Position numbers: made by a program. From assembly GCA_963676395.1 (NCBI GenBank), contig OY781066.1:1824001-1888000 (forward strand): a stretch of 64,000 nt of DNA, given 5' to 3'. Positions 24,001-30,000 of this stretch are shown here, in pieces. Each line of letters opens with the position of its first letter. Positions within the stretch are counted from its first letter, which is position 1. This DNA comes from a bacterium (GTDB lineage: Bacteria; Fidelibacterota; Fidelibacteria; Fidelibacterales; Fidelibacteraceae).

Positions 24001-27000
24001 CCTTTAATTATCGTGCCGATCGTGTACGTGAGATCTCTGTAGCATTGAATGATAAAAGCTTTAATGAATTTAAAACTGAAGATATTAATTTGCATTATGT
24101 AACGATGACTCAGTATCAGGCTGATTTCCCATATCCGGTGTTGTTTAAACCGGTACAAATGGATAAGATCTTCGGTGAAGTGGTTGCCGATGCGGGATTG
24201 ACTCAATTACGTATTGCCGAAACAGAGAAGTATGCCCATGTGACTTATTTCTTTAATGGTGGTGAAGAGCAGCAGTATCCCGGTGAAGATCGTATTCTGG
24301 TACCTTCACCTAAAGTTGCAACATATGATTTACAGCCCGAAATGAGTGCGCCCGAAGTCACTGAAAAACTACTTGAGGCCATCGAGGCGGATAAATTTAA
24401 TGCTATTGTCCTTAACTTTGCAAATGGCGATATGGTGGGACATACCGGTATGTTGGATGCCGCAATCAAAGCACTTGAATACTTGGATGGTGCTATTGAG
24501 CGCATCGTAAAAGCATTTAACGCCAAAGGTGGAACTGTATTTATTACAGCCGATCATGGAAATTGTGAAACAATGTGGGATGACAAGAACGGACAACCTC
24601 ATACACAACATACTTTAAACAAGGTTCCCTTTATTGCATGTGATCCCGATGGAAAGATCAAATCTATGCGCGATGGCGGAAAACTTGCCGATATTGCTCC
24701 GACTCTACTTGATGTTTTGGGCATTGAAAAACCAGAACAGATGACCGGTGAGAGTTTGTTGCTTAAATAGCCGAAAAGTGTCATCCCGAGCGAAGTCGAG
24801 GGAGCTAAAACTAAACTGTATGAATGCTGATAAGGAGTCTTATGTTAAGACTCCTTTTTTATTAGCACAGGTCTGTCCCCCCGAGCATGGTCGAGGGGTC
24901 TCAAACTAAATAGCAATGTGCTTGAGTATAGTGGTTATGTTGAGGAATGATTACATTCGTTGCGGCATTCAAGGTTATACTCAGGGAGTAATGTCTTTGG
25001 TTTGCGATCTCTCCACTCATTCGTTTCTCACTCGGTCGAGATGACAAGAAAAGTGTCACCCCGAGCGAAGTCGAGGGGTCTCAGGTTAAGTAGTGATGTG
25101 CTTGAGTATAGTGGTTATGTTGAGGAATGATTACATTCGTTGTGGCATTCAAGGTTATACTCAGGGAGTAATGTCTTTGGTTTGAGATCTCTCCACTCGT
25201 TCGTTCCTCACTCGGTCGAGATGACAAGAAAAGTGTCATCCCGAGCGAAGTCGAGGGAGCTCAAGTTAAATAGTGATGTGCTTGAGTATAGTGATTATGT
25301 TGAGAGAATGATTACATTCGTTGTGGCATTCAAGATTATATTCAGGGAGTAATGTCGTTAGTTTGCGATCTCTCCACTCGTTCGTTCCTCACTCGGTCGA
25401 GATGACAAAAAAGCCACGCTTATGCGTGGCTCAATGTTTTATCTAATTAACTTCGATTTTTTTAAATATTCTTCATCGTCACCATAAATAAACAATACCG
25501 TACCTTCTTTTATGGTTTTAATAATATCCTGAGTGATATCCGGAGGAAGCGCGGGACAGCCCCAACTGCGACCGAGTCTGCCGTTTTCTTGGATAAATTC
25601 ATCAGTAACATAATCAGCCGAATGGATCACGATGTAACGTTTTCTTGCGCGATGATTAACCCCTTTCTCTAAACCATCAAGTTTCAAAGATGTCCCATGT
25701 TTTCCTTCATATGTTTCTGCGGTTTTATAAAAGCCCAATGAACTCTGGCGAGAGCCTTCTTTGTTAGAAAAGGCCATTGCAATATCTTCGCCGGTATTGA
25801 CTCCGTGAGAGGTATATGTATAGTAGAGAAGATTTTTGTTTTTTAGGTCAATGACATAAAAACGTTGAAATGTTGAAGGAAGTCCAAAATCAATAATTGC
25901 CAATAAATTGTCTTTTTTTTGCGCGATTTTAGAGTATCCGGTCATAGCCATTTTAAAGACATTATAATCTAGGACAGCTTCTAATTCTATATCACTGTAG
26001 AGTTGATTGATCTCTTCGATTGGCATGGGGGTTTTATTATACATCATGGTTGAACATCCGGAAAAAATTGCGATTATTAATAGTAATGGTATAAGTTTTT
26101 TCATCGAGAGTTCCTAAGAGTTTTTAATCATTTGTAGTAAGCCGCCCTCAAGAATGAGTCGTTGTGCAGCTTTACCGAGAGGATTGAAAGTATATTGTTT
26201 ATCCGCCACTTTTATTAATGCTATCTTGAAATCCACTATGATATCCAGTCCTGTGACAATGGTTAAACCTGTTTTATATGCTTCACAAAGATCATTGATG
26301 AGTTCAGGGCATTCGATAACGATAAAACCATTGTTTATGGCATTACGTTTGTATGTTTCGGAAAATGACCCTGCGATTACCATTTGTATACCTTTATGCA
26401 AGAATGCTGTGGCTGCCTGCTCACGCGAGGAACCGGTACCAAAGTTGAAACCACCTGCCAGAATATCACCTTTTTGTGTGATATTTACGAATTCAGGATC
26501 ATAATTTTCCATGACCACTTCGGCTTGCTCGGCACCTGTCATAGCATCATTATATGTGTATTTACCAGGGTAAATTCCATCGGTATTCAAGTTGTTTTCA
26601 GGACAATAGATTAAGCGACCTTCTATTTTTTCGGGGAAACCGGCAAGAATACTGGTTTTGCTGTTTTTAATTTTCTTGGGAGCTTCTGCAATATCGCAGA
26701 CCGGCGCGTGAAGTGTTGCTTCGGCGACGATGTAACCTTCCACAGCCGACATGGCGACGGTAAGGGGAGAGCCAAGATAAGCTTCAGAATCTTTCGCACC
26801 CATACGACCTTTAAAGTTCCGATTGGTTGCAGAAATAGCCACTTCGCCGGATTCAAGCAGACCTTTACCAAGTCCGATACACATGCCGCAACCGGGAGGC
26901 AGTTCAATGGCGCCGGCTTCGAGTAATGTCGTCCAGTGACCTTCTTTTTCGAGTTTTTCCTGGATCTCTTTCGAGGCACATCCTACATAAAATTCAACGC

Positions 27001-30000
27001 CATCGGCAACTTTTTTGCCTTTAATATAATCGGCAGCCGTAACCATATCTTCATAGCGACCATTCACGCAAGAAACCAGATAGGCTTTGTTAATGGGAAT
27101 ACGTTTATTATTCATTTCTTCTGCAGAATACATAAGCTTTACACCGTGCGGTCCTGAGATGATAGGTGAAATGCTACTGACATCCAGAGTAAGCGTTTTA
27201 GCGTAGTAGGCATCGGCATCCGCTTCAAGAGGATTTGTTTTTAATTCTTTAATGTTATCATCATTGATACGAGGATGAATACTAAGACCTTTGTCTGATT
27301 CAACACCCATGAGCCCGCGAACTTTAATATCGGCATTGCGTTTATCGTACCAGGCCAGAGTAAGCGCATCAACCGGGAAAAGTCCGACTAAAGCACCCCA
27401 TTCGGTGGTCATATTGGCAATAGTCATGCGCTGTTCGATACTGATATGCTTTAGGGCATCACCTTCGAATTCCAAGGCATGGTTTAGGACTTCATCTTTA
27501 GCGAAGAGTCCACAAAGAGCCAGAGCAATATCTTTACCGCTAACACCTTCGGCAGGTTTGCCGTTTAAAATAATCTTTGCAATAGGTGGAATTTGCCACC
27601 ATGTTTCACCTGTAACCCAAAGTCCGGCGGCATCGGTACGAACGATAGGAGTGCCCAAACAACCCAAACCACCATACATATTGGAGTGTGAATCAGAGGC
27701 AACTGCCAGAGTATTAGGAAAGGCATATCCCTCGTCACACATTATTTGATGACCGATACCCGTTTTTGCCGGATAAAAATCAATACCGTATTTCTTGGCA
27801 AAAGCTTCAATTTTAGCATACTTGGCCAGATTTTTTTCATCGGTACTTTGGACATTATGATCCAATGCATAGACCGGTTGGCGGGGATCATTGATCGTCA
27901 TTTTTCCAATTTCATTAAATTTGGGAATGACTGCACCTGTGTTATCGTGAGTTAAAACATGTTTTGGGCGGATCATAACATAATCGCCACTATGAACTTT
28001 ATCTTCGTGTCCAATAACAAATCGCTGTACGATCTTCTCGATCCTGGTTTGTTGCATATGCTTAGTCTCCAATATTAATGCTTTAATAATAGGGAAAATG
28101 AGAATAAAATTCCATAAAAAACGCTAAGAATACTTCATGCGAAGAGAAGGTGAAAATAAACAAAGGCACACTGCTTTACACGAAGTCACAAAGGGATCAA
28201 TTACAAAATTTGATTATAAGTATGTAATATTTGATTCGGATATTTTAAGCACTGAGTAAATTTGTGGGAGATAATACAAAACCCCGATTCCGGGGTTCTT
28301 AGTGAGTGCGGAAGGATTCGAACCTTCGACCAACGGCTTAAAAGGCCGCTGCTCTACCGACTGAGCTACGCACCCGTCTCAAAAGCCCAAAAGTATAAGT
28401 AAAATAGATTGTGAATGCAATAGAATTTTTAAAAAAGTGTAGCGTAAATCGTGAGTCCATAGTTGGAATGCAAATTGAACCGACATCCAAGCGACTCGGT
28501 TTCAAAAGGCTTCAACCGCCTCGGTTGAGTATACCTCGAACCGAGGCGGTTCAAGTCGCTTAGATAGACCGTTGTTCATTTAAATAAAATTTCGTATCTT
28601 CCACCATGAAAGTACAAGCAACACCCAAGGTAAAGCTCATTATCGGGTTGATATATTCGCAGCAGAGCGATCTTCGTGCCTGTGAGGTGCATTTACAAAA
28701 AGTATTTGGTACCATTGAGAGCATTAGTCCCGAATATGATTTTGATATTACGGACTATTATGAGCCTGAAATGGGAAAGGATCTAAAACGTCGATTTATT
28801 TCCTTCGAGCATCTGATCGATGCTAATGAGATCGCCGAAGTAAAACGTTTGAGTAATATAATTGAGCTGGATTATGTCAAAGAGGCCGGTCGTAGCATTA
28901 ATCTTGATCCGGGATACCTTGATATGGATAAATTTGTGCTGGCTTCGGCTAAGTATGGTAGACAAAAAATATATCTCGATAAAGGGATTTATGCGGATCC
29001 AACGCTTTATTTTTACAAGAAAGCGTTTCATGCCTATGAGTGGAGCTTTCCGGATTTTTCAAAAGGTATTTATAACGATTATTTTATAAACATTCGCAGA
29101 TATTATAAACAACAGATCAAATCATTATGATCATACTTTACATACTATTAGGTATTTTCTTATTTCTTTTGCTTTTGTTGGCAATGTTTCTTTTTGTACC
29201 CACAAAAATCTGTATGCAAGGTTCCTTTTGGGATGGAGAAATCAATGCTAAACTCGATGCTTATTGGATCAAGTACGTATTTGGCATGCGCATTCGACTT
29301 CTTGATATGGAAAAGCTGAAGATTATTGTTTGGTTTCTCGCTATTCCAATTCCTTTTTCTCTTCCTTTCAAGAATGCTAAAGCTCAGGACGATTTAAACA
29401 ATAAGGCTAAGATTAAGGAAGACGTAAAGGTTCAAGATAAGGTCGAAGAAGATGAGATGATCTCCATTGAAGAAGAAGAGTCTGAAAAAAAACCTGATGA
29501 TAAGAAAAGTTTGAGAGAAAAACTTGAAGATATTCTTCAAATTAAAGATACGCTGATTGCATTTATTCGCAAGAATTGGTCCGATATTAAGAAAATATTT
29601 GTGACCTACATCACATTTTCTATAGAACATTTAGACCTGAATCTTGGAATGGGAGATCCTGCGCAAACAGGAAAAATGGCGGGAAACCTTTATACTGCCT
29701 TGACTTTTATACCGGTTAAGCGTGTAAACCTTTCTTGGGATTTTACAAAAGCATGTTTTAATATTGATGCAAGCATAAAAATTATAATGAAGTTTTATGG
29801 AATTCTTCTTACATTACTAAAACTTTACAGATCTTACAAAAGGGAAGTAAAATGACATTTAACGATACTCTGGCCACCTTGTTAGACAAGGTGAAAACAC
29901 TAGCAAAAACCGAAACCGTTGTAGGCGATCCAATTGTCGTTAAGGATACAACATTGATCCCGATCTCTAAGGTCAGTGTTGGCTTTGCCACGGGTGGGGG

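What a model noticed while it worked through the whole genome (the two positions that open the first line are those of the whole stretch)
26114..28057. Homoaconitase / homoisocitrate dehydrogenase / PrpD-like / citrate-lyase-like module: candidate homocitrate-cleaving rou [...]
Six genes scattered in this genome - fungal-type homoaconitase g01573 (here), homoisocitrate-dehydrogenase-like g01076 (1249340-1250458), MmgE/PrpD-family g01532 (1800074-1801426), HD protein g00361 (413725-414252) and the citDE-citF pair (1025958-1028709) - form one operon in other Fidelibacterota families. They therefore work as one pathway. The best reading is the aminoadipate pathway run backwards: 2-oxoadipate to homoisocitrate to homocitrate, cleaved to 2-oxoglutarate and an acetyl unit.
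Evidence so far: Of 14 regions around homoaconitase in other families, 5 hold citDE-citF-HD-lysF-dehydrogenase-prpD together, 1 more all but prpD, 2 citDE-citF-HD-lysF, 4 lysF with the dehydrogenase. Operon carriers also have ordinary citrate synthase (5 of 5, call 162) and a separate aconitase (4 of 4, call 164), so the module is not a plain TCA stand-in. g01573 passes TIGR00139, 52% to fungal homoaconitase; best PDB match of g01076 is homoisocitrate dehydrogenase. No homocitrate synthase over cut-off in 5 of 5 tested, no citrate synthase here. A lysine-to-aminoadipate entry is present: lat plus aminoadipate-semialdehyde dehydrogenase here, saccharopine dehydrogenase adjacent to the same dehydrogenase in 5 [...]
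(Added by a program. Inside this text positions count along the whole contig: contig position 1,824,001 is position 1 of the stretch shown here. "Call 12" and the like, gene names such as g00115 and contig names such as C1 are that model's own, and its searches are not shown. The text may have been shortened before it was handed on; [...] marks where a part breaks off. The agent that wrote the report below was given it as the finding of a first reader that could run no searches.)

Follow-up and report, generated by a model that had tools for sequence, protein, structure and literature searches.

The report
Undescribed homocitrate-cleaving enzyme module
This gene is one of six, scattered here but an operon in many other bacteria, that most likely turn the lysine breakdown product 2-oxoadipate into 2-oxoglutarate plus an acetyl unit, by a route I found no description of and for which no enzyme has been tested.

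Summary
The window gene (26114-28057, minus strand, 647 aa) passes the fungal-type homoaconitase cut-off. Its five scattered partners are real, and all six form one operon in 23 of 73 named loci.

Across 120 module loci, four functional slots each have two alternative fillers that never occur together: CitDE or citryl-CoA lyase, CitF or an ADP-forming ligase, PrpD or a second aconitase, fused or split homoaconitase. So this is one pathway.

A homocitrate-type substrate is favoured. The dehydrogenase carries the fungal homoisocitrate-dehydrogenase motif SPIV, not the isocitrate motif SxN. Carriers outside this family keep citrate synthase (34 of 34) and a TCA aconitase (34 of 37). The pair is not a canonical citrate lyase: no CitG in 47 carriers, carrier serine replaced.

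Direction is inferred. I favour cleavage of (S)-homocitrate, but lysine-entry genes are not specific to carriers, and glutaryl-CoA dehydrogenase often sits in the operon. This genome lacks citrate synthase, TCA aconitase, isocitrate dehydrogenase and glutaryl-CoA dehydrogenase, so a citrate role stays open here. The scan has reported this module on at least eight other genomes.

The parts
26114..28057 (-). Fused (fungal Lys4/LysF-type) homoaconitase, 647 aa; the only one of the six module genes inside the window. Partners lie at contig 1249340-1250458 (dehydrogenase), 1800074-1801426 (PrpD-like, after sdhCDAB), 413725-414252 (HD) and 1025958-1028724 (citF, citDE).
   Evidence: TIGR00139 758.7 bits vs cut-off 529.9; PF00330 + PF00694; ATG start; partners
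26879..27070 (-). Stretch holding the three cysteines (C330, C390, C393) expected to bind the [4Fe-4S] cluster
   Evidence: positions; ligand role from knowledge of the aconitase family, not tested
25439..26104 (-). Context only, not part of the module: YkuD_2 L,D-transpeptidase-family gene 9 bp downstream, probably co-transcribed
   Evidence: PF13645 230.9 bits; a homologous gene lies in 11 of 73 named loci
25411..25432 (-). Terminator-like hairpin with T run closing the two-gene unit
   Evidence: consensus scan only; 7 such sites in the region against 3.3 expected

Best explanation
The six genes encode one thioester-conserving route between 2-oxoadipate and 2-oxoglutarate plus an acetyl unit, used mainly in the cleavage direction. 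(1) The dehydrogenase reductively carboxylates 2-oxoadipate to homoisocitrate. (2) The window's homoaconitase dehydrates it to cis-homoaconitate. (3) The PrpD-family enzyme hydrates that to (S)-homocitrate, the mirror form of the biosynthetic (R) compound. (4) CitF loads CoA from a free acyl-CoA; in this genome succinyl-CoA is the likely donor. (5) The CitE domain cleaves (S)-homocitryl-CoA to acetyl-CoA and 2-oxoglutarate. The CitD domain is probably not a working acyl carrier. The HD protein is an accessory metal hydrolase; my best guess is a homocitrate-lactone hydrolase. The route would make lysine a source of 2-oxoglutarate and would consume NADH. Shown: genes, families, linkage, substitutions, motif, absences. 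Inferred: substrate, stereochemistry, direction, CoA donor, HD role.
For: One pathway: in 65 phylum genomes, a citF or citryl-CoA-lyase unit and this prpD occur together in 40, neither in 23, and disagree in 2. Four slots show zero co-occurrence of their alternative fillers in 120 loci.

Substrate: SPIV in 58 of 58 module dehydrogenase rows matches YSSPIVALRK of PDB 3ty3 'probable homoisocitrate dehydrogenase', while isocitrate dehydrogenases show SxN. A 60%-identical ortholog and a fungal-type homoaconitase sit in a full HCS-LysKJZYX cluster in G059. G252 and G264 have an HCS-like gene and a LysW cluster with no homoaconitase or dehydrogenase in it; their only Iso_dh genes are the module copy plus LeuB or IDH. 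Fungal homoaconitase only interconverts homoaconitate and homoisocitrate and needs a second enzyme (PMC3556520, abstract and sections 3 and 7), which gives PrpD a job. Separate citrate synthase in 34 of 34 and TCA aconitase in 34 of 37 non-family genomes.

Stereochemistry: prpD is missing from both clusters with their own HCS and homoaconitase (G059, G007). PrpD handles the (2S,3S) methylcitrate that aconitase cannot (PMC3556520, discussion passage).

Direction: the activation slot holds a CoA transferase (71 loci), an ADP-forming ligase (9) or an AMP-forming ligase (1, L201). No HCS or lysXYZK gene lies at any of 120 loci. LysX is over the cut-off in 2 of 40 phylum carriers and DapB in 4 of 40, against 3 of 23 non-carriers. 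An omega-aminotransferase and a semialdehyde dehydrogenase head the operon in L210. A CstA-family importer lies at 16 loci and a DASS carrier at 2. This genome has lat, Kor, acetate kinase and Sdh but no succinyl-CoA synthetase and no glutaryl-CoA dehydrogenase.
Against: No enzyme has been assayed. lat is as common in non-carriers (19 of 23) as in carriers (27 of 40), and glutaryl-CoA dehydrogenase is not anti-correlated (27 of 40 vs 19 of 23). It lies at 11 loci, directly after prpD in several, which also fits forward flux. By score the dehydrogenase is a tie: 226.6 bits to Thermus HICDH vs 225.1 to an isocitrate dehydrogenase, and it passes no NCBIfam cut-off. A. fumigatus LysF is listed with 1.88 U/mg on isocitrate against 7.5 on homoisocitrate (PMC3556520, Table 1). 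The PrpD-like protein is closer to IDS epimerase and cis-aconitate decarboxylase than to PrpD. In 19 loci an aconitase-family protein replaces PrpD, so the PrpD chemistry is not obligatory. G134 and G263 carry the module and a LysW cluster with no HCS and no DapB. G075, G083 and G099 keep the homoaconitase without citF or prpD. The genome panel was chosen by homoaconitase status and kin are not independent.
Confidence: 0.5

Rival explanations
1. Same chemistry, forward direction: the lyase condenses acetyl-CoA with 2-oxoglutarate, CitF or the HD protein (as a thioesterase) frees (S)-homocitrate, and the route makes 2-oxoadipate, either for lysine or for oxidation through glutaryl-CoA.
For: Glutaryl-CoA dehydrogenase lies at 11 loci and a 2-oxoacid dehydrogenase E1 at 4. 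DapB is in 0 of 39 homoaconitase-positive phylum genomes. G134 and G263 have LysW clusters without HCS. An earlier scan note (e1-3029209) reports lyase + HD + PrpD inside a lysine operon.
Against: DapB is also rare in non-carriers (3 of 23), and 8 of 15 named carriers have it. 38 of 40 phylum carriers lack LysX. G134 and G263 have argG but no argJ, so their LysW cluster may make ornithine. Carriers with an HCS-linked LysW cluster keep their own HCS-like gene. The lysine-operon case was not found among 18 HD hits in 301 Planctomycetota-centred genomes, 9 lyase hits in 381 genomes (I read the DNA around all of these except G263's HD, read earlier) or 80 metagenome loci. I. album lacks dapABD and any known alternative yet has the citF/citDE pair (PMC3362086, passages).
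Confidence: 0.22
2. The module works on citrate and isocitrate: citrate fermentation or a reverse-TCA segment, or in this family a stand-in for citrate synthase, aconitase and isocitrate dehydrogenase that makes glutamate.
For: This family has no citrate synthase (0 of 7) and no TCA aconitase (0 of 5); this genome has no other isocitrate dehydrogenase. CitF passes TIGR01584. PMC3362086 read the I. album pair as citrate lyase. The dehydrogenase scores tie.
Against: Citrate needs only one aconitase, yet a second dehydratase slot is filled at 100 of 120 loci. The IDH asparagine is absent in 58 of 58 rows. Carriers outside this family have the ordinary enzymes, including a separate IDH in G134, G251 and G264. 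A DASS carrier lies at only 2 of 120 loci.
Confidence: 0.15
3. The substrate is another chiral alkyl-tricarboxylate, for example the longer homologues that shorten 2-oxopimelate or 2-oxosuberate, or it differs between lineages. Methylcitrate is unlikely.
For: The best NCBIfam match of the dehydrogenase is the methanogen chain-elongation enzyme AksF2, below its cut-off. Some contigs carry HD + citF + lyase without an adjacent dehydrogenase.
Against: The links found point to C6: LysW clusters, glutaryl-CoA dehydrogenase, aminotransferase plus semialdehyde dehydrogenase. No prpB or prpC here and no prpB at 120 loci; 2-methylisocitrate has a tertiary alcohol that a dehydrogenase cannot oxidise (chemistry, recalled).
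Confidence: 0.1

Closest known systems
Upper alpha-aminoadipate pathway of fungi and Thermus (homocitrate synthase; aconitase + Lys4/LysF or LysTU; Lys12/HICDH)
   Same: Homoaconitase passes TIGR00139; the dehydrogenase shares the 3ty3 SPIV motif; isomerisation is split over two enzymes, as PMC3556520 shows for fungi.
   Different: No homocitrate synthase or LysW genes at 120 loci. A CoA-conserving lyase plus CoA activator and a PrpD-family enzyme take their place, which implies (S)- rather than (R)-homocitrate and probably the opposite direction.
Citrate lyase CitCDEFXG (EC 4.1.3.6)
   Same: CitF passes TIGR01584; a CitE domain and a CitD-like domain are present.
   Different: CitD is fused to CitE; E. 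coli Ser14 aligns to Arg in 58 of 64 rows; no CitG in 47 carriers; no citC, citG or citX match in this genome beyond one weak CitC hit (E 0.0012); CitE scores below its cut-off.
Citryl-CoA synthetase + citryl-CoA lyase / ATP-citrate lyase
   Same: In 9 loci a SucC/SucD-like ligase and a citryl-CoA lyase, sometimes fused, fill the cleavage slots; the L050 lyase passes PRK06224 models.
   Different: Not present in this genome; where present they come with the HD protein and mostly with homoaconitase and the SPIV dehydrogenase.
2-Methylcitrate cycle (PrpBCD + aconitase)
   Same: Same logic: a Si-face C-C bond, a MmgE/PrpD enzyme for the step aconitase cannot do, then an aconitase-family enzyme.
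   Different: No PrpB or PrpC; a beta-decarboxylating dehydrogenase instead; the PrpD-like protein scores 83.8 against a TIGR02330 cut-off of 458.

Membership tests
Fungal-type homoaconitase (TIGR00139) | Score above the curated cut-off, fused large and small domains | tested here: met
   758.7 vs 529.9; PF00330 + PF00694
Fungal-type homoaconitase (TIGR00139) | Activity on cis-homoaconitate/homoisocitrate, none on homocitrate | not testable with these tools
   needs an assay; property of the fungal enzymes from PMC3556520
Homoisocitrate dehydrogenase | Passes a curated HICDH model | tested here: not met
   best NF040626 335.8 vs 540; no model passed
Homoisocitrate dehydrogenase | Substrate helix like fungal HICDH (SPIV) and without the IDH asparagine (SxN) | tested here: met
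   58 of 58 module rows; 3ty3 alignment; IDH rows. The role of that asparagine, and of Thermus Arg85, is recalled; paper searches found nothing on it
Upper aminoadipate pathway (biosynthetic) | Homocitrate synthase | tested here: not met
   here only LeuA- and CimA-like genes, 265.8 and 226.3 vs 413.55; none at 120 loci
Upper aminoadipate pathway (biosynthetic) | A lower half (LysW/LysX route, or aminoadipate reductase plus saccharopine dehydrogenases) | tested here: not met
   LysX 133 vs 275.6; no lysW or lysZ match; no PF03435 here; aminoadipate reductase was not searched
Citrate lyase holoenzyme | CitF alpha subunit | tested here: met
   513.8 vs 501.45
Citrate lyase holoenzyme | CitG/CitX/CitC to build and acetylate the prosthetic group | tested here: not met
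   PF01874 in 0 of 47 carriers, control positive; phmmer and tblastn with E. coli proteins
Citrate lyase holoenzyme | Carrier serine (Ser14, recalled) in CitD | tested here: inconclusive
   aligned residue is R in 58, K in 4, S in 1 of 64; the next column is S in 60 of 64, so a one-residue shift is not excluded
2-Methylcitrate dehydratase PrpD / methylcitrate cycle | Passes PrpD equivalog; PrpB and PrpC present | tested here: not met
   it is a MmgE/PrpD superfamily member only
HD-domain phosphohydrolases | HD fold and intact His-Asp doublet | tested here: inconclusive
   fold met (pLDDT 95; best match YhaM, TM 0.70); doublet His kept in 24 of 120, replaced by A, I or V in 92; H59, D98, H123, H147 invariant

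The most novel reading that the evidence does not exclude
A widespread, CO2-fixing lysine catabolic branch that runs aminoadipate-pathway chemistry backwards through (S)-homocitrate and (S)-homocitryl-CoA, built repeatedly from interchangeable parts. In this family it would be the only route from lysine to central metabolism, with CitF recycling succinyl-CoA in place of the missing succinyl-CoA synthetase and giving acetate plus succinate.
Probability: 0.45. Interest if true: 0.88.

Novelty: new variant of a known kind. Interest (0 to 1): 0.7.

Why it matters
If right, it adds a lysine (2-oxoadipate) degradation route that yields 2-oxoglutarate rather than only acetyl-CoA, which would matter for cells without a glyoxylate cycle and for anaerobes that need an NADH sink. 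It would give a function to the many bacterial 'fungal-type homoaconitases' now annotated as lysine biosynthesis, and to one MmgE/PrpD clade and one HD family. It would also reinterpret the CitF/CitDE pair that was read as citrate lyase and as a hint of a reverse TCA cycle in Ignavibacterium album (PMC3362086). Cultured species appear among the named carriers (I. album and Melioribacter roseus assemblies), so it is directly testable.

Tried and rejected
Anti-correlation with glutaryl-CoA dehydrogenase: predicted, not found (27 of 40 carriers vs 19 of 23 non-carriers).

lat as a module marker: not specific. Three lat-negative carriers tested (G009, G010, G147) have an LKR-like plus saccharopine dehydrogenase pair, which can be read in either direction.

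Absence of the DAP route as a sign of biosynthesis: DapB is rare across the panel.

Homoaconitase-PrpD fusion (L104): one long-read assembly, with CAG where a neighbour has TAG; not used as evidence.

HD protein function: PDB sequence search empty; profile and fold searches gave only YhaM-like HD folds; the Atlas gave only HD clusters. Complex prediction of HD with CitDE gave no verdict.

Expression: no RNA holder listed.

Papers: searches found no description of this operon or of homocitrate cleavage; searches found nothing on Arg85. The library lacks most subscription journals. PMC11237513 passages were not relevant. No supplements were read.

One count discarded: 'homoaconitase and split homoaconitase together, 17 loci' was an artefact of small subunits; corrected.

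The tree is the quick version; the careful search did not finish.

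
Full report
Observation. The finding's coordinates hold a 647-aa ORF on the minus strand, starting at ATG 28057. 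It passes TIGR00139 homoaconitase at 758.7 bits against a cut-off of 529.9. In the window it stands apart from the module, followed by a YkuD_2 gene and a terminator-like hairpin. The five partners exist where stated: an Iso_dh-family dehydrogenase that passes no NCBIfam model, a MmgE/PrpD protein directly after sdhCDAB, a 175-aa HD protein, CitF and a CitD-CitE fusion.

One pathway. A close homoaconitase is in 106 of 251 phylum genomes. Of 73 named loci around relatives, 23 hold all six genes. Most are labelled Ignavibacteria; two labelled Acidobacteriota and Syntrophomonadaceae share neighbours with them and may be mislabelled. Two genomes of this family keep citDE-citF-HD-dehydrogenase together. 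I built a panel of 39 homoaconitase-positive and 26 negative phylum genomes plus 15 named carriers; it was chosen by homoaconitase status and kin are not independent. Among the 65 phylum genomes, a citF or citryl-CoA-lyase unit and this prpD were both present in 40, both absent in 23, and disagreed in 2.

Interchangeable parts. I took all fetched loci from L035 on that have the HD gene and at least two other module genes: 120 distinct loci, many cut by contig ends. PrpD alone occurs in 81, a second aconitase-family clade alone in 19, both in 0. CitDE occurs in 68, citryl-CoA lyase in 15, both in 0. CitF occurs in 71, a SucC/SucD-like ligase in 9, both in 0. Fused homoaconitase occurs in 87, a split one in 18, both in 0. 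The dehydrogenase is at 94 loci. In a quick tree, the split and fused homoaconitases group with the enzyme of an HCS-LysW cluster (G007) at SH-aLRT 99 on a very short branch, apart from the PrpD-replacing clade and LeuC.

Substrate. All 58 module dehydrogenase rows (some duplicated between loci) carry SPIV, as in PDB 3ty3, a probable homoisocitrate dehydrogenase. Isocitrate dehydrogenases carry SxN there; that this asparagine binds isocitrate is recalled. By total score the protein is a tie between the two. G059 has a 60%-identical dehydrogenase and a fungal-type homoaconitase inside an HCS-lysKJZYX cluster, with no citF or prpD. G252 and G264 have an HCS-like gene and a LysW cluster without homoaconitase or dehydrogenase, and no other candidate dehydrogenase but LeuB or IDH. 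Fungal homoaconitases only interconvert homoaconitate and homoisocitrate, so a second enzyme is needed (PMC3556520: abstract, introduction, section 7 and passages read). Outside this family, citrate synthase is in 34 of 34 positives and a large TCA aconitase in 34 of 37 genomes searched.

Stereochemistry. CitE and citryl-CoA lyase act on the (3S), Si-face product, while homocitrate synthase gives (R)-homocitrate (lyase specificity recalled; the (R) form is in PMC3556520, Fig. 1 legend). A lyase of this kind therefore needs (S)-homocitrate, which the ordinary aconitase route does not supply. PrpD does the matching job for (2S,3S)-methylcitrate (same paper, discussion passage). This explains why prpD tracks the lyase and is missing where HCS is used. 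It is an inference: the protein is closer to IDS epimerase and cis-aconitate decarboxylase than to PrpD.

Not a canonical citrate lyase. CitG was found in 0 of 47 carriers, and E. coli CitC, CitG and CitX have no convincing match here. E. coli Ser14 aligns to Arg in 58 of 64 CitD-like domains, although the next column is a conserved Ser. Free CoA esters are the simpler reading.

Direction. For cleavage: the activation slot holds a CoA transferase, an ADP-forming ligase or, once, an AMP-forming ligase. No HCS or lysXYZK gene lies at any of the 120 loci. LysX passes in 2 of 40 phylum carriers. One operon starts with an omega-aminotransferase and a semialdehyde dehydrogenase, and 16 loci hold a CstA-family transporter. 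I. album is reported to lack dapABD and any known alternative lysine route, yet has the citF/citDE pair (PMC3362086, passages); a separate assembly labelled I. album has the whole operon and no HMGL-like synthase. Against: lat and glutaryl-CoA dehydrogenase are at least as common in non-carriers. Glutaryl-CoA dehydrogenase lies at 11 module loci. G134 and G263 have LysW clusters without HCS, though these may serve arginine synthesis. G075, G083 and G099 keep the homoaconitase without citF or prpD, which neither reading explains. All steps are near equilibrium (recalled), so direction may differ by lineage.

This genome. It is 95% complete in one contig. No match was found for citrate synthase, TCA aconitase, monomeric or other isocitrate dehydrogenase, glutaryl-CoA dehydrogenase, succinyl-CoA synthetase, DapB, LysX or HCS. 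It has lat with its dehydrogenase, a Kor-like pair beside fumarase-like genes (read from sequence), Sdh, acetate kinase and glutamate dehydrogenase homologues. The cleavage reading closes neatly: Kor turns the 2-oxoglutarate into succinyl-CoA, CitF spends it on homocitrate, and lysine ends as acetate plus succinate. But the same absences leave the module as the only candidate for a citrate route to glutamate, so that rival cannot be dismissed here.

HD protein. It has a confident HD fold closest to YhaM, four invariant metal-ligand candidates, and the first His of the doublet is lost in most copies. I used it to select the loci, so its constancy there is by construction. Homocitrate forms a lactone and citrate does not (recalled), so a lactonase is my guess; a homocitryl-CoA thioesterase would favour the forward rival.

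Novelty. Six paper searches found no description, in a library without most subscription journals. Each enzyme belongs to a known family; the combination and the (S)-homocitryl-CoA chemistry appear undescribed. The scan has noted the same module on at least eight other genomes; those notes are not independent support. I rate one pathway at about 0.9, a homocitrate-type substrate at about 0.75, and the full cleavage reading at about 0.5.

Noticed in passing
G000:C1:1526582-1527784 (-), outside the window: A 400-aa aconitase-like protein (E 2.8e-11 to the window gene) with a single cysteine; it looks like a degenerate aconitase without the Fe-S ligands.
   Followed up: partly
G000:C1:98248-99615 (-): A second CitE-like gene next to a MaoC-like gene (read from sequence) inside a surface-polysaccharide cluster.
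   Followed up: no
L002:2899-7427 (G000), L223, L224, L225, L227: The prpD-like gene follows or lies near the sdh genes in five genomes of this family, but not in G029.
   Followed up: partly
L161 (G071) compared with L151 and L182: In a module-less marine genome thyX and glutaryl-CoA dehydrogenase are adjacent, where relatives have the whole module between them; this looks like a clean deletion.
   Followed up: partly
L148, L149, L151, L153-L156, L180, L181, L184, L185, L236, L238: A cation-efflux (CDF) transporter gene travels with the module at 13 loci, sometimes between its genes.
   Followed up: no
L241 (G083), L190 (G075), L191 (G099): Homoaconitase, with the dehydrogenase in two cases, is kept after loss of citF and prpD and without LysX; unexplained.
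   Followed up: partly
L298, L299, L301, L332, L286: Contigs that look archaeal by gene content carry HD + citF + citryl-CoA lyase, or HD + an ATP-citrate-lyase-like pair, without an adjacent dehydrogenase.
   Followed up: no
G000:C1:2000862-2002118 (-): A lysA-like decarboxylase (269.7 vs cut-off 297.9) in a genome with no DapB; it may act on scavenged diaminopimelate.
   Followed up: no
window 54915-55604 (+): Part of a RimK-family ATP-grasp gene that is the only LysX-like hit here, far below the LysX cut-off.
   Followed up: yes
L294:11127-11594 and seven similar loci: A DinB-family gene lies at eight metagenome loci, usually between prpD and homoaconitase.
   Followed up: no
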